From Bacteriophage P2, in sequence record NC_001895.1: DNA of 33,593 bases. One strand, given 5' to 3'. The notes under the pieces were generated by a model. That model was given only the letters and a program-made list of their open reading frames with translations. It made no database searches and had not been told where the DNA came from. Positions within the stretch are counted from its first letter, which is position 1. Each line of letters opens with the position of its first letter. Made by a program: the position numbers and the translations under genes. Positions 8,493-33,380 of the stretch are shown here, piece by piece.

Positions 8493-8922
8493 TGCCGTCA
8501 CGGTGCTGAAAACTAACCCCGATATGCTGCGGATATTCGTGGATAACGGGAGTATTGCCTCCACACTGGCGGCGTCGCTGTCATTCGAAAAGCGTTACAC
8601 GCTCAATGTGATTGTGACCGACTTTACCGGTGATTTTGACCTGCTCATTGTGCCGGTGCTGGCGTGGCTGCGGGAAAATCAGCCCGACATCATGACCACC
8701 GACGAAGGCCAGAAAAAGGGCTTCACGTTTTATGCAGACATCAACAATGACAGCAGCTTTGATATCAGTATCAGCCTGATGCTGACCGAGCGCACGCTGG
8801 TCAGTGAGGTGGACGGCGCACTGCATGTGAAGAATATCTCGGAACCCCCGCCGCCGGAGCCGGTCACCCGCCCGATGGAGCTGTATATCAATGGCGAACT
8901 GGTGAGTAAGTGGGATGAATGA
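8455..8922 (+). CDS. R: Tail completion protein R
   Basis: 155-aa ORF at the expected position and length. Confidence 0.85.
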   Translation: MLKPDSLRRALTDAVTVLKTNPDMLRIFVDNGSIASTLAASLSFEKRYTLNVIVTDFTGDFDLLIVPVLAWLRENQPDIMTTDEGQKKGFTFYADINNDSSFDISISLMLTERTLVSEVDGALHVKNISEPPPPEPVTRPMELYINGELVSKWDE

Positions 8923-9367
8923 GTTTAAGCGTTTTGAAGACCGGCTGACCGGACTGATTGAATCGCTGTCACCGTCAGGGCGTCGGCGACTGAGTGCCGA
9001 ACTGGCGAAACGTCTGCGGCAGAGTCAGCAGCGTCGGGTGATGGCACAGAAAGCCCCGGACGGCACACCCTACGCGCCACGCCAGCAGCAGAGCGTCAGA
9101 AAAAAGACCGGTCGCGTTAAGCGAAAAATGTTTGCGAAACTTATTACCAGTCGTTTTTTGCATATCCGTGCCAGCCCGGAGCAGGCATCAATGGAATTTT
9201 ACGGCGGGAAGTCGCCGAAAATCGCCAGTGTGCATCAGTTTGGTCTGTCGGAAGAAAACCGGAAAGACGGTAAGAAAATTGATTATCCGGCGCGTCCCCT
9301 GCTCGGCTTTACCGGTGAGGATGTGCAGATGATTGAAGAGATTATCCTGGCTCACCTTGAGCGTTAG
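8915..9367 (+). CDS. S: Tail completion protein S
   Basis: 150-aa ORF overlapping the R stop; expected position and length. Confidence 0.85.
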   Translation: MNEFKRFEDRLTGLIESLSPSGRRRLSAELAKRLRQSQQRRVMAQKAPDGTPYAPRQQQSVRKKTGRVKRKMFAKLITSRFLHIRASPEQASMEFYGGKSPKIASVHQFGLSEENRKDGKKIDYPARPLLGFTGEDVQMIEEIILAHLER

Positions 9368-9396
9368 TTTTATCCAGGCAGAGGCTGATGCGCAAT

Positions 9397-9433
9397 TAAA
9401 CATTGAGCGGCCATGCTGGTCGCTCAATGTTTA
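9397..9433. terminator. Bidirectional hairpin between convergent S and the minus-strand island gene
   Basis: Perfect 13-bp inverted repeat TAAACATTGAGCG / CGCTCAATGTTTA (9397-9409 and 9421-9433) with 11-nt loop, between the S stop (9367) and the orf30 stop (9439). Confidence 0.6.
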
Positions 9434-9438
9434 GAGGT

Positions 9439-10224
9439 TTATGAGTGATTTTTATTTGATGCTTTGTATTCTAAAACCTTCTTATTGGCGTAAAAGAATT
9501 TTGTATATGACAGGAATATAACCAGACCTGAAGTGAAATAGACGAGGGATAGTATTAATAATGCTTTTTTGTGACTGTTATTATCTTTAATCTCCTGGCT
9601 TAACCATTCGGAGTCCTCCTCGTTTAGCTGTAAGAGCTTATTGCAGGCGATCTCAGGAAGTGTGTCTTTTATAAATACGTTTTGCAGTCTCTTGCAATCG
9701 GCAAGGCTATAAGTTTTATTAAATTCAACTGCTTTATTTTTGAAGGATAAAAGAACTTTGTCACTATAAACATAGTACATCATGTTTTTATATGGTATGC
9801 CTGTGGCATCCCTTACTATAACGGATTGTTCGTTGTGTATGTAACATGCGAGGAGAATGTAAAAAATACTGGCCAGAATTACAATTATTGTTTTAATTAT
9901 GTGTGGTGGTTTTGTTATGTCACCCCAGATACGAGTAAGGAAAAAATACGATGTTTTTAGTTTTCCATCAATCAGTCCCTGCTGTATCATTCTCACATTT
10001 TCAATGCCTGATACATTGATTCCGTTAATTATTTTAAATAGTTGAATGTCGCGCCACTCGCGGTCAAGTCTTTTTAATTTTTTGTCTGAATATCCAAAAT
10101 TGAAATAATGTGCAATAAGCCTCATAAGGTTACTTTTACCAAAGCTAAAAAATGCTAATACTGCAAAGCTACAAAGGAAAAAAACGATTAGCCCCCACAC
10201 ATTAGTCACATTATAGCTGACCAT
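9439..10224 (-). CDS. Low-GC accessory (moron) gene: 261-aa membrane protein with about three transmembrane helices, function unknown (P2 orf30 position)
   Basis: ATG at 10222-10224; AT-rich codon usage unlike flanking genes; hydrophobic segments VWGLIVFFLCSFAVLAFFSF, IIKTIIVILASIFYILLACYI, ALLILSLVYFTSGLVIFLSY; opposite strand to the late operons. Confidence 0.75.
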   Translation of the reverse strand: MVSYNVTNVWGLIVFFLCSFAVLAFFSFGKSNLMRLIAHYFNFGYSDKKLKRLDREWRDIQLFKIINGINVSGIENVRMIQQGLIDGKLKTSYFFLTRIWGDITKPPHIIKTIIVILASIFYILLACYIHNEQSVIVRDATGIPYKNMMYYVYSDKVLLSFKNKAVEFNKTYSLADCKRLQNVFIKDTLPEIACNKLLQLNEEDSEWLSQEIKDNNSHKKALLILSLVYFTSGLVIFLSYTKFFYANKKVLEYKASNKNHS

Positions 10225-10307
10225 TACGCTCTCCTTGAATGTTGTCTGGTAGTTCTACAAATGAATCCAGATAGCATAACTTTTATATATTGTGCAATCT
10301 CACATGC

Positions 10308-10943
10308 ATGAACACTCTCGCAAATATTCAGGAACTCGCGCGCGCACTGCGCAACATGATTCGCACTGGCATTATCGTCGAAACCGACCTTAACGCCGGT
10401 CGCTGCCGCGTGCAGACCGGCGGCATGTGCACCGACTGGCTTCAGTGGCTGACCCATCGCGCAGGACGTTCGCGCACATGGTGGGCACCTTCCGTGGGGG
10501 AACAGGTGCTGATTCTGGCCGTGGGTGGTGAACTCGACACGGCGTTCGTTCTGCCGGGGATTTATTCCGGCGATAACCCCTCGCCGTCTGTGTCGGCGGA
10601 TGCCCTGCATATCCGTTTCCCTGACGGGGCGGTGATTGAATATGAACCCGAAACCAGTGCACTCACGGTAAGCGGAATTAAAACGGCCAGCGTGACGGCT
10701 TCCGGTTCTGTTACTGCCACGGTGCCGGTGGTCATGGTGAAAGCATCAACCCGCGTCACCCTGGACACCCCGGAGGTGGTCTGCACCAACAGGCTGATTA
10801 CCGGCACGCTGGAAGTGCAGAAAGGCGGGACGATGCGCGGCAACATTGAACACACCGGCGGTGAACTCTCATCAAACGGTAAGGTACTGCATACCCATAA
10901 ACACCCCGGCGACAGCGGCGGCACAACCGGGAGTCCTTTATGA
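10308..10943 (+). CDS. V: Baseplate spike/assembly protein V
   Basis: ORF track starts at a TTG (10290); ATG at 10308 (MNTLANIQE...) gives 211 aa, matching gpV. Confidence 0.85.
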   Translation: MNTLANIQELARALRNMIRTGIIVETDLNAGRCRVQTGGMCTDWLQWLTHRAGRSRTWWAPSVGEQVLILAVGGELDTAFVLPGIYSGDNPSPSVSADALHIRFPDGAVIEYEPETSALTVSGIKTASVTASGSVTATVPVVMVKASTRVTLDTPEVVCTNRLITGTLEVQKGGTMRGNIEHTGGELSSNGKVLHTHKHPGDSGGTTGSPL

Positions 10944-15674: not shown

Positions 15675-17261
15675 TTATTTTTTTAAAGCCTTTCCGACGT
15701 TTAAGGATTTTGCCAAGCCATAAAATATTTGATATTTCATTCCTGTTTTTATTTTTGGTGAGATATTTGCGTAACTTCTTTCTCTAAAACACCAACGTAT
15801 AAACCTATTATTATCTTCGGTTGTTTCTATATAGCATATTACATTGAGACCAAAAAGAAACTGAAGGAAGTCATTTGCAGTTGTCATGAATTTTGGTTTT
15901 GTTGTGGAAATGGAACTAATATGAGTTTCAAGTTGTTTATATGCTAAGAGGTATTCAGCGTAATCAAAAGTATCTTTTCCAGAGAGGAATTCAAAGAACT
16001 TTAAAAAAATCTCATAATGTTCACTTCCATAATAAAATGATAAATGATCTTTTATTTCTCCAAGTAAATAGTTAGAGTAATCTCTTTGCATGCTAGGACT
16101 TTCAAAGTCATCTAGACTAAATTGATTTTTCCCATCATCACCGCTGGCGTGTGATTTGATAATTTCGAGCATCCGTAATATATCTCTTGGGCGATAATAT
16201 GACCAGCGAAGGAAATTAATAAATGATGTGGGGTGGTTATAATTATCATGGACGTTGGGTGAATCCCAAGGGAAATAATGGTCCCATGCCTGTCCCTTTT
16301 TAAGGGCCATGTCTTGCTGAGTCCTAAGCAGATGATCTAATACCTCAAATAATTGAGAGCTACGGTGGTTAACATATTCTGTCCGCCAGTCCAAGAATAC
16401 TGAATTATCTCTGATTTTTGCGTTTTGATTTTGTAATCCTATGGATTCAAATATATCTGGCCTGATCAAGAGAACGGCCTTCATTCTCCCTTTTCCTCCC
16501 TTTATACTTGGGAAGAAATCGTTGTTAATCTCCCAGACTGCGTGAGCTAATCCTTTTATACATTCTAGATAATCATCGTATGGAATTGAGGAAGGGCGGA
16601 TATCAATACCATCGATAAATAAAATATGATTTTGAGATAAACGTATTTGGCTAAAGGCCTCTTCAAATTTTTTTTGTATATAAAATAAATTTATCTGAAA
16701 TCTGCTCTCAGAAAAAGATAAAGACTCTCTTTCTTCACCTTTTAAGGTTGCATGCTTATGAAGTAGTTCGGCTGCAACTTTTGACTCTTGAACAAAACTG
16801 AGGGCTTGAATTATTTCTGGTGAAAATGCCTTAAGATAATACTCATCTATTGCATCATTAAGTGATGAGAATTTTGAATAATTTAGTAACTTTGAAATTT
16901 TCCCTTCTTTATCTAATACTTGTTTTGATATTAATAAATATAGAATAACTTTCCATATGCCAGAGAAGTCAGACAAATTTAAATGCTTTTCAGATTTAAG
17001 AGTGATAAATTTTTGATATTCTGTCTCTCTTATATATTTAGTTGTAGCTAGCGTATTGTTAATATTGTTATTTGAGAGATAGATAGAGTATGCGGTTTTA
17101 CCAGTACCTTTCTCTCCTACAAGAAACGATATATTTGGTTCACATAATCTAGATAGGTGATTATCACGTATGAACACTTTGTTAAGTAATTCTTTATTCT
17201 CCCTTCTCTTATAATTTTCAGCATCAGCATAGCCAAGAGTTAGATCTTTGATTGGTATCAT
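15675..17261 (-). CDS. fun: Low-GC accessory gene: 528-aa P-loop NTPase (Walker A GEKGTGKT; candidate Walker B ILFIDGIDIR), candidate phage-exclusion protein at the Z/fun position
   Basis: ATG at 17259-17261 with GAGGT RBS; strongly AT-rich; minus strand between plus-strand G and FI; flanked by about 400-bp AT-rich non-coding regions; gene symbol assigned from position in the P2 map, not from sequence comparison. Confidence 0.75.
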   Translation of the reverse strand: MIPIKDLTLGYADAENYKRRENKELLNKVFIRDNHLSRLCEPNISFLVGEKGTGKTAYSIYLSNNNINNTLATTKYIRETEYQKFITLKSEKHLNLSDFSGIWKVILYLLISKQVLDKEGKISKLLNYSKFSSLNDAIDEYYLKAFSPEIIQALSFVQESKVAAELLHKHATLKGEERESLSFSESRFQINLFYIQKKFEEAFSQIRLSQNHILFIDGIDIRPSSIPYDDYLECIKGLAHAVWEINNDFFPSIKGGKGRMKAVLLIRPDIFESIGLQNQNAKIRDNSVFLDWRTEYVNHRSSQLFEVLDHLLRTQQDMALKKGQAWDHYFPWDSPNVHDNYNHPTSFINFLRWSYYRPRDILRMLEIIKSHASGDDGKNQFSLDDFESPSMQRDYSNYLLGEIKDHLSFYYGSEHYEIFLKFFEFLSGKDTFDYAEYLLAYKQLETHISSISTTKPKFMTTANDFLQFLFGLNVICYIETTEDNNRFIRWCFRERSYANISPKIKTGMKYQIFYGLAKSLNVGKALKK

Positions 17262-30683: not shown

Positions 30684-31445
30684 TCAATTGAGTATCGATT
30701 TTCGTTCGAATATAACCATAACGCCAAGCGTCAAATGTAAGTCATCTATATGTGATTCGTATTCATATTGGTCAGCATCAGGAGATAGTAAATGCTCTGC
30801 TGCTGTAAAAACATCAATTGTAACAGATATATCGTCTGGAATTTCTTCATTTAATTCGGATATGTATTTTTTATATTTGTTTTTTAATTTCCTTATCATG
30901 TCTTCCTTATGGTGGATTGTAGTGCAGTAATTTTTTTTAGTTGAATCATTGTATGAATGGAATGAACAGTTTAATGCTAGGCCAAGACTTGAATTTCCTG
31001 TAGGGCCTGTGTGTTTAAAGTATTCAAGATTTCTTCTTATGTCAGAAAATAAAAGACTTTTACAGGGGGCATTTCCTTTAACTTCTATTGCACATATTGG
31101 AATGTCGAAAAATGGTCTGCTGTCCAATATGGCAATATCAATTCTGCCTGATCTTGTTGTGTTTGTGTTTTTTCTGACAGTTTTTTTTGAGAATATTTTT
31201 TGGGGGTCAGACCGTTTCGATAAAGGAACTGTTGCATTAATGAATTTATTTGTATGGTACTCAAATATAACTTTGTAATCACCATGGCGAAAAGATTTTA
31301 TTTCTAACAACGATAGACCTATAGATACGGTAGCTACATATTCAGTGTTTATTTTTGCACCAGACCTGAAATCCATTAAATAAGTTGCGTCGGCTGACTT
31401 TTTCATTCCATCTTTTACAGCTTTCACAATATCCATGTTATTCAT
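30684..31445 (-). CDS. tin: Low-GC accessory gene: 253-aa protein at the tin position (T-even phage inhibition), with a possible PD-(D/E)xK-like motif
   Basis: ATG at 31443-31445 with AGGTG RBS; AT-rich; minus strand downstream of old; motif IDIAILD...x13...EVK in residues about 101-123; gene symbol assigned from position in the P2 map. Confidence 0.75.
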   Translation of the reverse strand: MNNMDIVKAVKDGMKKSADATYLMDFRSGAKINTEYVATVSIGLSLLEIKSFRHGDYKVIFEYHTNKFINATVPLSKRSDPQKIFSKKTVRKNTNTTRSGRIDIAILDSRPFFDIPICAIEVKGNAPCKSLLFSDIRRNLEYFKHTGPTGNSSLGLALNCSFHSYNDSTKKNYCTTIHHKEDMIRKLKNKYKKYISELNEEIPDDISVTIDVFTAAEHLLSPDADQYEYESHIDDLHLTLGVMVIFERKSILN

Positions 31446-31619: not shown

Positions 31620-33380
31620 TTAAATCCATTTTATGAAATCTTCCATTTCATCATATTTTTTTATTACTGCTCTAACATCTTTGCTTTCATCACATAAACA
31701 ATCTAAAAGACTATCCCATTCAGTTTGTTTTTTACCAAATCCATAAACAGCCTCTATATCACCGGATTTCCATATATAGATTCCGTTATCTTTCAATTTT
31801 TGATGTATTTCATGTATATGCTTTTGTGTTTTTTCATGGTTACATATTTTGATGAAGTCTTTGCTTGAAATGCTTTTGAATGACTCAAAAGTAGTAACTT
31901 TTGTATTTAAACTAAGCTCTCCTGAGTTGATTGATTCAATCAAAGCAGTCAATAGATTATCACATTCAGTACTAAGTAAGTCTTTATGCTCTGTTAATAG
32001 AATATTTGATAAGAAATCACAATCAGCTAGAATCCTTGTTTTTATGCCGATGGCATTGATGATTTGTGACATCTTAAATAAACTACCCTTACCGTCAACG
32101 GCAACAATGCAGATTTTACTCGGGTTGAGTTCATGTCCGTTAATTTTTTTATAAAGTGCATATAGAACGTTTGTCTCTGTTTTCCCTTCAACAAGCAAAA
32201 CTTCTTCAGAAAATAAAAGGTATGATGAATTAGAAAGCGTGAATGCTGAGTGCAATTGCGGTGATGAAGATTTATATAATTCTTCGATTTTTTCAGATAT
32301 AGTCTTCCTTGCTATGGTTCCATTAGAATCCTTACAAACCTGAATCGCATTTGCTGCATGCTTTGCAGAAAGCATACTGGCTGAGTGAGTTGATATTATA
32401 ACCTGATACCCTGATTCACTTAATGTGACAAGTGATTCTCTGACAGAATTAATGGCTGAAGGGTGTAAATATAACTCAGGTTCATCAATGAAAATCAAAG
32501 TGTTTGATTTTTTTGATTCGCTGTTTTCTTTTTTTATTTCGGCCAGGTATTGAATTAATGCCATTTGAATGGAACGTTGTGTTCCGTGACCAAATCGGCT
32601 GATATCTCTCATTACCGGTTCATCTTCCCGAGACTCAAAAACTTTCAGAGTGCCGGATTTAAATATCTCATCTAATGTCGGTGTGGGAAAGTGTAACTTT
32701 ACACTTACGTCAGGAAAAAATTGGTTTACTTTTTTATTTACACCTGAGTCTATTTTATTAAGGCTTTCTAATCTGTTCTCACCGTTGTGAGAAAGATATT
32801 TACCTATTTCTGATATGTTTTTTGAAAATTTTTCTTCGTGTTCTTGTTTTATTTCAGAAACAATTGCGGAAAGTATCTTTCCTATTGTGGTCGTGTTTTT
32901 GCATTTTGTTGAGTCTTCGACAGCGTCAGACATTGCAGGGATATGAATTGGTTCCGGAAATATATTGGAGATTGCACCATCTATGCCGCCAGGGTTTTTC
33001 TTCCACGTGGTACCGTCATATACATCCAGACTTTTTTTGGCTTTTCCTGTTTCCTTATTAAATTCCTGTCTTCTTGCAAAGGTAAGAGTCCCGTCAATTA
33101 TAAACGGAGCTATTTTTTGTTGATTCTCTTCTGTTAACAAAGACAGAGTATCATCTGTTATACCTTGAATAACGCCTTCAACGGATACGGGGTGTGTAGG
33201 ATCGTACACATCTGATTCTGAAATCAAAGAGCCATCTAACAGCCACTTAATTGCTAAGATAATATTTGATTTTCCTGCGTTATTATAACCAACTAAAGCA
33301 GTGAAGGGGCGCAAAATAGCCGATGTTGACTTACAAGAACGAAAGTTGCTAATTGAAACTGAAGCAAGACGTACAGTCAT
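31620..33380 (-). CDS. old: OLD-family nuclease: N-terminal ABC-type ATPase fused to C-terminal TOPRIM domain (anti-phage / overcoming lysogenisation defect)
   Basis: 586 aa; Walker A GYNNAGKSN near N-terminus; Walker B LIFIDEPELYLHP; TOPRIM-like LLVEGKTETNVL and DxD in ILADCDFLS; AT-rich; last gene before right cos. Confidence 0.85.
   Translation of the reverse strand: MTVRLASVSISNFRSCKSTSAILRPFTALVGYNNAGKSNIILAIKWLLDGSLISESDVYDPTHPVSVEGVIQGITDDTLSLLTEENQQKIAPFIIDGTLTFARRQEFNKETGKAKKSLDVYDGTTWKKNPGGIDGAISNIFPEPIHIPAMSDAVEDSTKCKNTTTIGKILSAIVSEIKQEHEEKFSKNISEIGKYLSHNGENRLESLNKIDSGVNKKVNQFFPDVSVKLHFPTPTLDEIFKSGTLKVFESREDEPVMRDISRFGHGTQRSIQMALIQYLAEIKKENSESKKSNTLIFIDEPELYLHPSAINSVRESLVTLSESGYQVIISTHSASMLSAKHAANAIQVCKDSNGTIARKTISEKIEELYKSSSPQLHSAFTLSNSSYLLFSEEVLLVEGKTETNVLYALYKKINGHELNPSKICIVAVDGKGSLFKMSQIINAIGIKTRILADCDFLSNILLTEHKDLLSTECDNLLTALIESINSGELSLNTKVTTFESFKSISSKDFIKICNHEKTQKHIHEIHQKLKDNGIYIWKSGDIEAVYGFGKKQTEWDSLLDCLCDESKDVRAVIKKYDEMEDFIKWI

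What the first reader, a model, noticed from the sequence alone, without database searches (positions are those of the whole stretch)
9368..10307. Third AT-rich moron: 261-aa three-helix membrane protein inserted in opposite orientation between S and V
A minus-strand, AT-rich gene interrupts the otherwise co-directional late tail operons. It is isolated by a perfect 13-bp hairpin on one side and by the V promoter region on the other. The protein has an N-terminal and two further hydrophobic helices and Lys/Asn-rich loops, with no motif I can assign. Membrane-anchored morons at such positions are often superinfection-exclusion or abortive-infection effectors. Its function appears uncharacterised.
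Basis: partly seen in the sequence, partly recalled or inferred. Interest (0 to 1): 0.65.

Follow-up and report, generated by a model that had tools for sequence, protein, structure and literature searches.

The report
Phage P2 orf30 membrane protein gene
This is the long-annotated but still uncharacterised gene orf30 of phage P2: an optional, AT-rich gene for a three-helix inner-membrane protein that sits at a fixed variable site between two tail genes and most likely takes part in phage-versus-phage conflict, though no function has been shown.

Summary
Window 9439-10224 (-) is an intact 261-aa ORF with GC 0.34, against about 0.55-0.60 in the flanks. It has three hydrophobic helices. A 13-bp perfect hairpin lies on the S side and the V late-promoter element on the other.

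It is not new. It is P2 orf30, listed in the literature as "unknown" and as one of three horizontally acquired regions of P2.

What I add:
- The family is tiny (44 representatives at 50% clustering) and weakly related to Pfam DUF6216.
- Even homologs of 21-25% identity, in six named genera of Enterobacterales, sit between V and S on the opposite strand.
- In E. coli the site is polymorphic: orf30 in 460 of 1587 genomes that match the S-V query, an empty site in most others, and other cargo in a few.
- Alleles are intact and under purifying selection (dN/dS 0.44, against about 0.1 in the flanking genes).
- The predicted topology is N-out/C-in. The periplasmic domain carries two cysteines present in all 29 aligned members.
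- The fold matches nothing solved.
- A 2026 preprint reports H-NS binding and silencing of a "DUF6216" gene in the E. coli B P2 remnant, probably this gene.

My best guess at function is superinfection exclusion at the inner membrane, by analogy with P22 SieA. This is inferred, not shown.

The parts
9368..10307 (.). AT-rich S-V segment (GC 0.35). In most related E. coli prophages a 66-bp GC-rich spacer takes its place.
   Evidence: Composition. Comparison with the empty site in L004.
9397..9433 (.). Inverted repeat between the convergent stop codons of S and orf30. It has a 13-bp perfect core, 17-nt arms and a 3-nt loop. It is a candidate bidirectional terminator.
   Evidence: Folding: -30.3 kcal/mol (+) and -22.4 kcal/mol (-), z = -6.1 and -4.8. 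Stem invariant and loop variable in 8 alleles. The consensus terminator scan did not list it, because no T-run follows directly.
9439..10224 (-). orf30 coding sequence: 261 aa plus stop, PHROG 2407, distantly related to DUF6216.
   Evidence: Intact at 786 bp in 9 of 9 alleles, dN/dS 0.44.
10141..10197 (-). TM1 (residues 10-28). The N-tail (residues 1-9) is acidic or uncharged across the family and is predicted to be periplasmic.
   Evidence: Hydropathy. Family charge statistics.
9895..10140 (-). Loop 1 (residues 29-110), a helical domain predicted to be cytoplasmic (family net charge +5.6). It holds the best-conserved motif, D59-x-Q-L-F-[KR]-x-x-N-G-I-N-V, plus D76 and G87.
   Evidence: dN/dS 0.31.
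9832..9894 (-). TM2 (residues 111-131).
9562..9831 (-). Loop 2 (residues 132-221), predicted to be periplasmic: a four-stranded sheet (140-173) plus helices. It has exactly two Cys (C177, C194) in all 29 family members, 14-19 residues apart, so a disulfide is likely.
   Evidence: dN/dS 0.34.
9499..9561 (-). TM3 (residues 222-242), continuous with a long helix spanning residues 202-260.
9442..9498 (-). Basic C-terminal tail (residues 243-261), predicted to be cytoplasmic. K254 is nearly invariant (at least 90% of the 29 sequences); N247 is conserved only within the closer sub-alignments.
   Evidence: dN/dS 0.18.
10231..10236 (-). Shine-Dalgarno sequence AAGGAG, 6 nt upstream of the orf30 ATG.
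   Evidence: Read from the sequence. AAGGAG-like sites lie upstream of most homologs.
10240..10259 (+). Upstream element of the V late promoter (TGTTGTCTGGTAGTTCTACA). Its GTTGT lies exactly 67 nt before the V ATG, only 16 nt from the orf30 start codon.
   Evidence: Similar GTTGTG elements upstream of O and FI. The same 67-nt spacing occurs in the empty-site phage, and the element is kept with all alternative cargos. Its complement CACAAC recurs upstream of distant homologs. Its role as the Ogr-dependent activator site comes from my memory of the P2 literature and was not tested here.
8915..9367 (+). Gene S (tail completion), the left border of the site.
   Evidence: PF05069, 5.5e-44.
10308..10943 (+). 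Gene V (baseplate spike), the right border of the site.
   Evidence: PF04717, PF18715 and a weak PF18946 match.

Best explanation
The feature is gene orf30 of phage P2, or of a near-identical P2 genome. It is a dispensable accessory gene with its own transcription unit. It lies between the stop codon of S and the V late promoter, on the opposite strand, and ends at a strong hairpin.

It encodes a 261-aa inner-membrane protein with three transmembrane helices. The predicted topology is N-terminus out and C-terminus in. An ~80-residue conserved helical domain faces the cytoplasm. A ~90-residue beta/alpha domain faces the periplasm and is probably disulfide-bonded.

The gene belongs to a small, fast-diverging family that is distantly related to DUF6216. 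The family has stayed at this one locus in P2-like phages across Enterobacterales. Its AT-rich DNA is probably bound and silenced by H-NS in the lysogen.

The most likely function is superinfection exclusion. In this model the prophage-made protein sits in the inner membrane and interferes, by protein-protein contact, with the DNA-delivery step of an incoming phage, as P22 SieA does.

Shown here: gene identity, intactness, purifying selection, locus conservation, presence/absence polymorphism and lack of any known domain. Predicted: topology, disulfide and fold. Inferred by analogy only: the exclusion function and its target.
For: Identity and reality of the gene:
- Position, strand and size match 'Orf30, unknown' between S and V in P2. 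A 98.7%-identical copy is annotated 'putative 30.4 kDa protein'.
- The gene is present in 464 of 5426 complete E. coli genomes, and 460 of them carry at least 80% of the segment.
- All 9 alleles examined are 786 bp without stops or indels.
- dN/dS is 0.44 overall and 0.31, 0.34 and 0.18 in the two loops and the tail. S, V and W give 0.09-0.13.

Dispensable cargo at a variable site:
- Only 460 of 1587 genomes that match the S-V query carry it. Most others have a 66-bp spacer.
- A few carry unrelated AT-rich genes: a 247-aa protein, a 357-aa protein with two TM helices, and a 246-aa weakly HNH-like protein. The last corresponds to the 741-bp ORF reported in phage R18C (PMC6823313).

Locus-locked family:
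- Searches place homologs between V and S. Flanking proteins are 44-85% identical while Orf30 is 21-25% identical.
- One locus has two tandem paralogs that are 26% identical to each other.

Independence from tail genes:
- A family member lies in a degraded P4-like satellite beside an AAA_21 + HNH gene pair.
- Intact copies persist in decayed prophages in E. coli B and Serratia rubidaea.

Topology:
- Family-wide charges are N-tail -0.7, loop 1 +5.6, loop 2 0.0 and C-tail +1.9.
- There are exactly two Cys in loop 2 in 29 of 29 sequences.
- The AF2 model has pLDDT 84.7 and pTM 0.76.
- No invariant catalytic-type residues were found. The invariant positions are G68, G87, C194 and I212, and C177 once alignment jitter is allowed for. 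This favours a binding or structural role.

Context prior:
- The other AT-rich cargo loci of P2 (old, tin, Z/fun) are anti-phage genes.

Close architectural analogues:
- P22 sieA encodes a 3-TM inner-membrane protein. It is an opposite-strand gene immediately after a late ejection-protein gene, and its sequence types are under 30% identical.
- e14 YmfE (Kunado) is an H-NS-silenced TM protein that blocks T5-like phages after adsorption.

Regulation:
- In the BL21 P2-like remnant, H-NS ChIP peaks fall on RT, Ndt and a 'DUF6216' gene. These are the lowest-GC regions, and all are up-regulated in the hns/stpA double mutant.
- E. coli B strains carry an intact orf30 allele in that remnant.
Against: - No experiment links orf30 to any phenotype. 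I found none in the searchable literature.
- There is no sequence homology to SieA (hhalign probability 0.2%) or to YmfE (0.1%).
- PADLOC gave no hit. Accession searches of the DefensePredictor supplement found nothing.
- No convincing sigma-70 promoter was found for orf30. If H-NS silences the gene, the protein may be scarce in ordinary lysogens.
- In the sampled hit lists, genomes with orf30 are not visibly depleted of a second P2-like S-V region: 5 of 18 orf30 rows against 6 of 40 other rows have two places. This is a small sample and is biased by the ranking. It is weak evidence against exclusion of P2-like phages themselves.
- The link between the preprint's 'DUF6216' gene and orf30 is my inference. 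No supplement was available to check it.
Confidence: 0.4

Rival explanations
1. Abortive-infection effector. The conserved cytoplasmic domain senses an infection cue, and the three helices oligomerise into a pore that depolarises and kills the infected cell. This would be comparable to RexB-type or 2TM/SLATT-type membrane effectors.
For: - It is a single-gene membrane protein at a site that also holds nuclease-like cargo (an HNH-like protein, and a protein with an R-x4-H motif).
- One family member is named by UniRef 'SMODS and SLOG-associating 2TM effector domain-containing protein'.
- H-NS silencing is the pattern reported for toxic immunity genes.
- The most conserved part of the protein is the cytoplasmic loop.
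Against: - The SLATT name could not be reproduced. No SLATT model matched in Pfam or NCBIfam, even at E <= 10.
- The helices are separated by 80-90-residue domains and do not form a 2TM hairpin.
- There is no partner sensor or antitoxin gene at the locus.
- Intact copies are kept in decayed prophages. This fits a harmless resident protein better than a poised toxin.
Confidence: 0.2
2. Lysogenic conversion of the host envelope unrelated to phage exclusion. Examples would be altered LPS or outer-membrane properties, stress tolerance, or colonisation fitness, mediated by the periplasmic domain.
For: - The predicted periplasmic disulfide domain is conserved across the family.
- The gene is retained in degraded prophages, where phage functions are lost.
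- The neighbouring variable locus of the E. coli B remnant carries a glycosyltransferase.
Against: - No enzyme family or catalytic-type invariant residues were found.
- The family is confined to P2-like phages and one satellite, and is not found in host islands generally.
- Divergence is very fast compared with the flanking genes. That is more typical of conflict genes.
Confidence: 0.12
3. An accessory function in the phage's own lytic cycle. Examples would be modulating lysis timing, preventing re-adsorption or abortive injection of progeny into lysing cells, or assisting tail or baseplate assembly at the membrane.
For: - The locus is fixed between the tail-completion and baseplate genes in many genera.
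- The start codon is 16 nt from the V late-promoter element, so expression could be coupled to late transcription.
Against: - The gene is absent from about 70% of E. coli S-V regions, and from most of the 93 phage records that matched the S-V query: 18 carry the full segment.
- It is on the opposite strand to the late operons.
- It occurs in a P4-like satellite remnant without tail genes.
- Unrelated genes replace it at the same site.
Confidence: 0.08
4. No current function: a decaying or selfish remnant that persists by linkage to essential tail genes.
For: - No phenotype is known and no domain matches.
- The gene is dispensable.
- dN/dS of 0.44 is relaxed compared with the neighbours.
Against: - Nine of nine alleles are intact with identical length. 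In 460 of 464 E. coli genomes with a match, at least 80% of the 940-bp segment is covered.
- dN/dS is 0.18-0.34 in the soluble parts.
- Architecture, motif and the Cys pair are preserved down to about 17% identity.
- The model is confident (pLDDT 84.7).
Confidence: 0.03

Closest known systems
Phage P2 orf30 (ORF of unknown function between S and V; literature lists 'Orf30 unknown')
   Same: Same position, strand, length and low GC. It matches PHROG 2407 at 2.9e-148. Near-identical copies occur in P2-like phages and prophages. This is the same gene.
   Different: Nothing differs. The public record gives no function. The locus-wide and family-wide analysis here is additional.
P22 SieA (superinfection exclusion, inner membrane)
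   Same: - A predicted 3-TM inner-membrane protein encoded by a prophage.
- The gene lies on the opposite strand, embedded in the late structural region next to DNA-delivery genes.
- Sequence types are under 30% identical at one locus.

   Different: - No detectable homology (hhalign probability 0.2%).
- SieA is 162-164 aa with short loops. Orf30 is 261 aa with two ~80-90-residue domains.
- SieA's function and targets (gp16, gp20) are shown experimentally. Orf30's are not.
e14 YmfE (Kunado), an H-NS-silenced prophage membrane protein that blocks T5-like phages after adsorption
   Same: An AT-rich prophage cargo gene for a transmembrane protein. H-NS binding and derepression in hns/stpA mutants are reported for both YmfE and the 'DUF6216' gene of the E. 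coli B P2 remnant.
   Different: No homology (hhalign probability 0.1%). The prophage and locus differ. A phenotype is known only for YmfE.
Pfam DUF6216 (PF19723)
   Same: Nine of 29 family members hit it. One (P0031, Sodalis) hits over its full length at 28.9 bits, above the 27.3-bit gathering score. A preprint uses this name for the gene in BL21.
   Different: The window protein itself gives no Pfam hit at E <= 1. DUF6216 has no known function, so membership adds no mechanism.
P2 old, tin and Z/fun (anti-phage lysogenic-conversion genes of P2)
   Same: - Low GC (0.33-0.35).
- Minus strand.
- Located at variable loci where relatives carry other cargo.

   Different: They are unrelated soluble proteins with known targets. 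The S-V site is not among the P2 defence hotspots named in the three hotspot papers I searched (PMC9122126, 10.1101/2024.10.15.618418, 10.64898/2026.02.27.708500).
SLATT / 2TM membrane effectors of nucleotide-signalling defence systems
   Same: Small membrane proteins in conflict systems. One family member carries this name in UniRef.
   Different: No SLATT model matches. Orf30 has three widely spaced helices and no associated nucleotide synthetase gene.

Membership tests
Phage P2 orf30 | ORF between tail-completion gene S and baseplate gene V, transcribed opposite to both | tested here: met
   Literature table in PMC3091744.
Phage P2 orf30 | About 30-kDa (261-aa) product, low GC, near-identical in P2-like coliphages | tested here: met
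   261 aa, GC 0.34. 80-98.5% identical copies in 19 phage records, one annotated 'putative 30.4 kDa protein'. PHROG 2407 at 2.9e-148.
Pfam DUF6216 (PF19723) | Score above the Pfam gathering cut-off (27.3 bits) over the full-length profile | tested here: inconclusive
   The window protein has no hit. Family member P0031 scores 28.9 bits over profile positions 10-265 of 270. Eight others hit weakly. Homology is therefore transitive only.
P22 SieA superinfection-exclusion family | Sequence homology to SieA, including the conserved cytoplasmic motif FxRYPxEAxxFNK | tested here: not met
   hhalign of the 29-sequence profile against P22 SieA gives probability 0.2%. The motif is described in PMC10883804.
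P22 SieA superinfection-exclusion family | Inner-membrane protein with three transmembrane helices | tested here: inconclusive
   Three helices are predicted by hydropathy and AF2. Membrane localisation cannot be tested here.
P22 SieA superinfection-exclusion family | Blocks DNA injection of superinfecting phage | not testable with these tools
   Needs plating, potassium-efflux or DNA-entry assays.
Kunado (YmfE) | Sequence homology to e14 YmfE | tested here: not met
   hhalign probability 0.1%.
SLATT 2TM effector domain | Match to a SLATT profile; two closely spaced TM helices | tested here: not met
   No SLATT hit for P0059 or other members in Pfam or NCBIfam at E <= 10. The helices are 80-90 residues apart.
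Known anti-phage defence systems (PADLOC-DB v2) | Match to any defence protein model | tested here: not met
   0 families at E <= 10.
Intrinsic (rho-independent) terminator | Stable GC-containing stem-loop followed directly by a U-tract | tested here: inconclusive
   The stem is very stable and conserved. No T-run follows directly, and the consensus scan did not call it. U residues lie within the base of the stem (UGUUUA).
Moron / accessory cargo at a phage variable locus | Dispensable, own transcription signals, deviant composition, replaced by other genes in relatives | tested here: met
   A promoter was not identified.

The most novel reading that the evidence does not exclude
Orf30/DUF6216 would found a previously unrecognised class of prophage immunity protein. 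It would be an H-NS-gated, disulfide-bonded three-helix inner-membrane protein kept beside the baseplate-spike gene of P2-like phages across Enterobacterales. It would block genome delivery by incoming contractile-tail or other phages. The S-V junction would then be an unlisted fourth defence locus of P2-like phages, exchanging cassettes with P4-like satellites.
Probability: 0.3. Interest if true: 0.6.

Novelty: already known. Interest (0 to 1): 0.38.

Why it matters
P2 is a reference temperate phage. Its other AT-rich cargo genes (old, tin, fun) each opened a line of work on anti-phage defence. orf30 is the remaining uncharacterised one.

This work shows that orf30 is a conserved, selected, locus-locked membrane-protein family with an orphan fold. 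The gene is carried by about 8.5% of complete E. coli genomes. The S-V junction is a cassette site that also holds nuclease-like genes and shares a family member with a P4-like satellite. Together these make orf30 a concrete, cheap candidate for a new exclusion or defence function.

The gain is modest. The gene and its foreign character are already in the literature, and nothing here establishes its function.

Tried and rejected
- Sequence families: Pfam, NCBIfam and PADLOC gave nothing for the window protein. A PDB sequence search with the family profile gave only chance hits.
- Structure:
  - The afdb50 library was unavailable.
- SLATT lead from a UniRef name: not reproduced.
- Homology to SieA and to YmfE: rejected.
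- Promoter for orf30: no convincing sigma-70 match in the 83-bp spacer. The best candidate is TTGCGA-16-(TG)GAGATT inside the start of V. No shared promoter position exists among homologs.
- TGT-N12-ACA, recalled from memory as the late-promoter dyad, is not matched exactly at P_V, P_O or P_F. I therefore relied on the shared GTTGT element.
- Literature: searches for orf30, for RefSeq protein accessions and in the DefensePredictor supplement found no functional data. The Christie & Calendar P2 review and Brenes & Laub 2025 are not held.
- Searches of genome and viral contigs with the whole-family alignments A2 and A6 failed for lack of a conserved stretch. I used sub-alignment A3 instead.
- I considered and rejected a small-toxin (type I TA) reading, because the protein is far too large, and an enzyme reading, because there are no invariant catalytic residues.
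Full report
**1. What is in the sequence**

The window is 33,593 bp. Its gene order is that of phage P2:
- portal and terminase genes on the minus strand at the left end;
- then capsid, lysis and tail genes on the plus strand.

From memory, the length equals that of the P2 reference genome, which does not appear to be in the phage collection. The best phage hits are P2-like peduoviruses at 93-98.5% identity.

The finding covers the segment between S and V. S is at 8915-9367 (+) and matches PF05069 at 5.5e-44. V is at 10308-10943 (+) and matches PF04717 and PF18715. A single long ORF lies there on the minus strand at 9439-10224, encoding 261 aa.

- GC is 0.34 for the ORF and 0.35 for 9368-10307. 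The whole window is 0.50, and flanking 400-bp windows are 0.53-0.62.
- Three hydrophobic stretches lie at about residues 10-28, 111-131 and 222-242. Lys is 9.6% and Asn 7.3%.
- Between the convergent stops of S and the ORF is an inverted repeat at 9397-9413/9417-9433, with a perfect 13-bp core. As RNA it folds to -30.3 kcal/mol on the + strand (z = -6.1) and -22.4 kcal/mol on the - strand (z = -4.8).
- An AAGGAG lies 6 nt upstream of the ATG.

**2. It is a known gene**

The position, strand and size are those of P2 orf30. A comparative paper on P2-like phages lists 'Orf30, unknown' between V and S. It also names P2 orf30 as one of three regions, with the TO region and the Z region, where relatives carry other, horizontally acquired genes (PMC3091744).

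- Another paper notes that phage R18C has a 741-bp ORF at this place instead of ORF30 (PMC6823313).
- A 98.7%-identical copy is annotated 'putative 30.4 kDa protein'.
- The three P2 hotspot papers I searched do not mention orf30. Where they name loci, these are the old/tin and Z/fun loci and a few others; Vassallo et al. likewise describe only those two loci.

I found no functional data on orf30 anywhere in the searchable library.

**3. It is a real, selected gene**

The 940-bp segment occurs in 464 of 5426 complete E. coli genomes, always on chromosomes. In 460 of them at least 80% of the segment is covered, at 90-100% identity.

I took nine alleles with their flanks: the window, seven E. coli loci and Yersinia phage YpM_46.
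- All nine are exactly 786 bp with no internal stop.
- Pairwise Nei-Gojobori dN/dS is 0.44 for orf30 (mean dN 0.075, mean dS 0.17). S gives 0.10, V 0.13 and W 0.09.
- By region, dN/dS is 1.1 for the N-terminus plus TM1, 0.79 for TM2 and 0.58 for TM3. It is 0.31 and 0.34 for the two loops and 0.18 for the C-tail.

So the soluble parts are under purifying selection. The protein as a whole changes about seven times faster than its neighbours. The caveats are that pairs are not independent and recombination was not modelled.

The non-coding flanks are more conserved than the coding sequence, at 98-99% against 90-92%. The hairpin stem is invariant and its loop is variable. This points to constrained signals at both ends.

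**4. The family and its locus**

The word-indexed search found only five clusters. An exhaustive profile search of 1.84 billion representatives found 44 proteins. The full-length ones (more than half) are 239-272 aa; the rest are fragments of 37-222 aa.

A 29-sequence alignment spans 16-87% identity to the window protein. It shows:
- invariant G68, G87, C194 and I212;
- near-invariant Q61, D76 and K254;
- the motif D-x-Q-L-F-[KR]-x-x-N-G-I-N-V.

Nine members weakly hit Pfam DUF6216. One of them (P0031) hits over its full length, above the gathering score.

The genomic context is strikingly constant. Homologs of 21-25% identity lie between V and S on the opposite strand in:
- Serratia nevei, and a Serratia rubidaea prophage remnant;
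- Yersinia frederiksenii;
- two Enterobacter assemblies;
- an unclassified enterobacterium;
- Rahnella and Sodalis;
- a Logan (public sequencing-run) assembly;
- 11 of 12 IMG/VR contigs (the twelfth is cut off by the contig end before S would appear).

In the same loci V is 60-85% identical to P2 V, R is 50-79% and S is 44-56%.

All homologs are AT-rich, at GC 0.30-0.38 against 0.48-0.63 in the flanks. Low GC is therefore a maintained property of the family and not a mark of recent arrival in P2.

- One locus carries two tandem paralogs that are 26% identical to each other.
- Another locus has two extra small genes between V and the homolog.

There are two exceptions to the S-V rule.
- A 39% homolog sits at a contig end in Enterobacter with non-phage neighbours.
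- A Leclercia copy lies in a degraded P4-like satellite. That locus has Psu and fragments of sid and alpha, next to an AAA_21 ATPase plus an HNH nuclease gene pair and the host boundary.

**5. The site is a cassette site**

Of 1587 E. coli genomes that match the S-V query, 460 have the orf30 segment. In an evenly spaced sample of 60 records:
- most of the rest have a 66-bp GC-rich spacer;
- four have other cargo.

The alternative cargos found were:
- a 247-aa soluble protein with an R-x4-H motif, on the minus strand;
- a 357-aa protein with two C-terminal helices, on the minus strand;
- a 246-aa protein with a weak HNH-like match, on the plus strand.

All have GC 0.33-0.36, and none matches a known family at significant level.

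In every haplotype a GTTGT-containing element is kept upstream of V (read); where I counted, in the orf30 and empty-site haplotypes, it lies 67 nt before the V start. It resembles the elements upstream of O and FI in this window. From my memory of the P2 literature this is the Ogr-responsive part of late promoter P_V.

Cargo therefore always sits between the S stop and P_V. The minus-strand cargos start 16-20 nt from that element.

**6. The protein**

Family-wide charge statistics are as follows:
- N-tail: net -0.7;
- loop 1: net +5.6;
- loop 2: net 0.0;
- C-tail: net +1.9.

By the positive-inside rule this gives N-out/C-in, with loop 1 cytoplasmic and loop 2 periplasmic. All 29 sequences have exactly two cysteines in loop 2, 14-19 residues apart. 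This fits a periplasmic disulfide.

With the 29-sequence alignment, AlphaFold2 gives pLDDT 84.7 and pTM 0.76. The model contains:
- a long TM1 helix;
- a helical loop-1 domain;
- TM2;
- a four-stranded sheet at residues 140-173;
- two short helices carrying the two cysteines;
- a 58-residue helix that includes TM3.

**7. Regulation**

I found no convincing sigma-70 promoter for orf30. Whatever promoter exists must overlap P_V or the start of V.

A 2026 preprint reports three H-NS ChIP-seq peaks in the P2-like prophage remnant of BL21-AI, on the retron RT, on Ndt and on a 'DUF6216' gene. These are the lowest-GC regions, and all are up-regulated in the hns/stpA double mutant (10.64898/2026.09.05.749240).

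E. coli B strains carry an intact orf30 allele in exactly such a remnant, beside a truncated S and a truncated portal gene. I infer that this is the DUF6216 gene of the preprint. I could not confirm it, because no supplement is held.

**8. Most likely mechanism**

The following is shown here. This is a dispensable, independently organised, selected gene for a membrane protein. It behaves as exchangeable cargo and is not tied to tail function.

The following is inferred. The protein most likely acts in conflict between phages.
- The other AT-rich cargo loci of P2 are all anti-phage genes.
- The same site holds nuclease-like genes.
- A family member sits in a satellite's accessory region next to an ATPase-nuclease pair.
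- The family diverges fast and can be duplicated in tandem.

Among conflict mechanisms I favour superinfection exclusion at the inner membrane, for four reasons:
- the protein has no enzyme signature;
- it has no partner gene;
- it is retained intact in decayed prophages;
- its architecture and gene placement parallel P22 SieA.

SieA is a 3-TM inner-membrane protein. Its gene is on the opposite strand directly after a late ejection-protein gene, and its sequence types are under 30% identical. The e14 protein YmfE (Kunado) is a second parallel. Neither is homologous to Orf30, so the claim is 'may work like', not 'is a member of'.

My confidence in the exclusion mechanism is about 0.4. The rivals are:
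- an abortive-infection pore (0.2);
- envelope conversion unrelated to phages (0.12);
- a role in P2's own cycle (0.08);
- no function (0.03).

The remainder is for something not considered.

**9. Verdict**

The feature is already known as P2 orf30, with function still unknown.

The new points are the locus-locked family, the predicted topology with a conserved Cys pair, the orphan fold, the DUF6216 link, the cassette nature of the S-V site, and the probable H-NS silencing. These sharpen a testable hypothesis but do not resolve the function. Interest is moderate to low (0.38).

Noticed in passing
window 15675-17261 (-), 30684-31445 (-), 31620-33380 (-): Three other long minus-strand ORFs have GC 0.33-0.35 in a genome of GC 0.50. 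By position and size they correspond to Z/fun, tin and old of P2. That assignment is from memory and was not checked with a family search.
   Followed up: partly
window 10240-10259; L004 about 769-786; L001-L003 upstream of V: A GTTGT-containing element lies exactly 67 nt upstream of the V start codon in both the orf30-bearing and the empty-site haplotype, and is read at about the same place with all alternative cargos, although the sequence between it and V differs completely. The late promoter architecture is conserved while its sequence is swapped together with the cargo.
   Followed up: partly
L004 about 803-824 (empty-site S-V spacer): Phages without cargo have a GC-rich hairpin (GCCGCCGG-tatgac-CCGGCGGC) between the GTTGT element and V, that is, inside the presumed promoter or leader of V. 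Its role is unknown.
   Followed up: no
L001 973-1716 (-), L002 872-1945 (-), L003 786-1526 (+): Alternative AT-rich cargos occur at the S-V site in E. coli prophages. They are a 247-aa soluble protein with an LRNILTH (R-x4-H, HEPN-like) motif, a 357-aa protein with two C-terminal TM helices, and a 246-aa protein with CxxC...H...CxxC and a weak HNH_5 hit. All fall in PHROGs of unknown function.
   Followed up: partly
L003 316-774: In the prophage with the HNH-like cargo, S is only 57% identical to P2 S, while R, V and W are 97-100% identical. A mosaic breakpoint lies at this junction.
   Followed up: no
L011 51-5750 (Leclercia adecarboxylata): A family member (42% identical to the Yersinia type) lies in a degraded P4-like satellite. 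The locus has Psu (PF07455) and fragments of sid and alpha, beside an AAA_21/AAA_15 ATPase plus an HNH nuclease gene pair, next to host xanthine-dehydrogenase genes.
   Followed up: partly
L024 4102-4872 and 5001-5759: Two tandem paralogs of the family, 26% identical to each other, lie between V and S in one assembly.
   Followed up: yes
L034 1465-2399: Two extra small ORFs lie between V and the family member in an IMG/VR contig: a 180-aa protein with no Pfam hit and a 133-aa DUF7480 protein.
   Followed up: no
L038 (E. coli B REL606, 2100409-2116397): The P2-like remnant of E. coli B keeps ogr, sheath, fibre, baseplate, V and an intact orf30 allele, but has truncated S, portal, tube and D genes. 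It carries a family-2 glycosyltransferase at the Z/fun position, and an AAA ATPase plus ABC-three-component-system genes beyond the portal fragment.
   Followed up: no
L001 1800-2435: In E. coli strain 504838, gene V next to the alternative cargo is annotated as a pseudogene with an internal stop.
   Followed up: no
window 10224-10610 (-): A 128-aa minus-strand ORF overlaps the start of V antisense and abuts the orf30 start codon. It is GC-rich and looks like a mechanical ORF on the reverse strand of V, not a gene.
   Followed up: no
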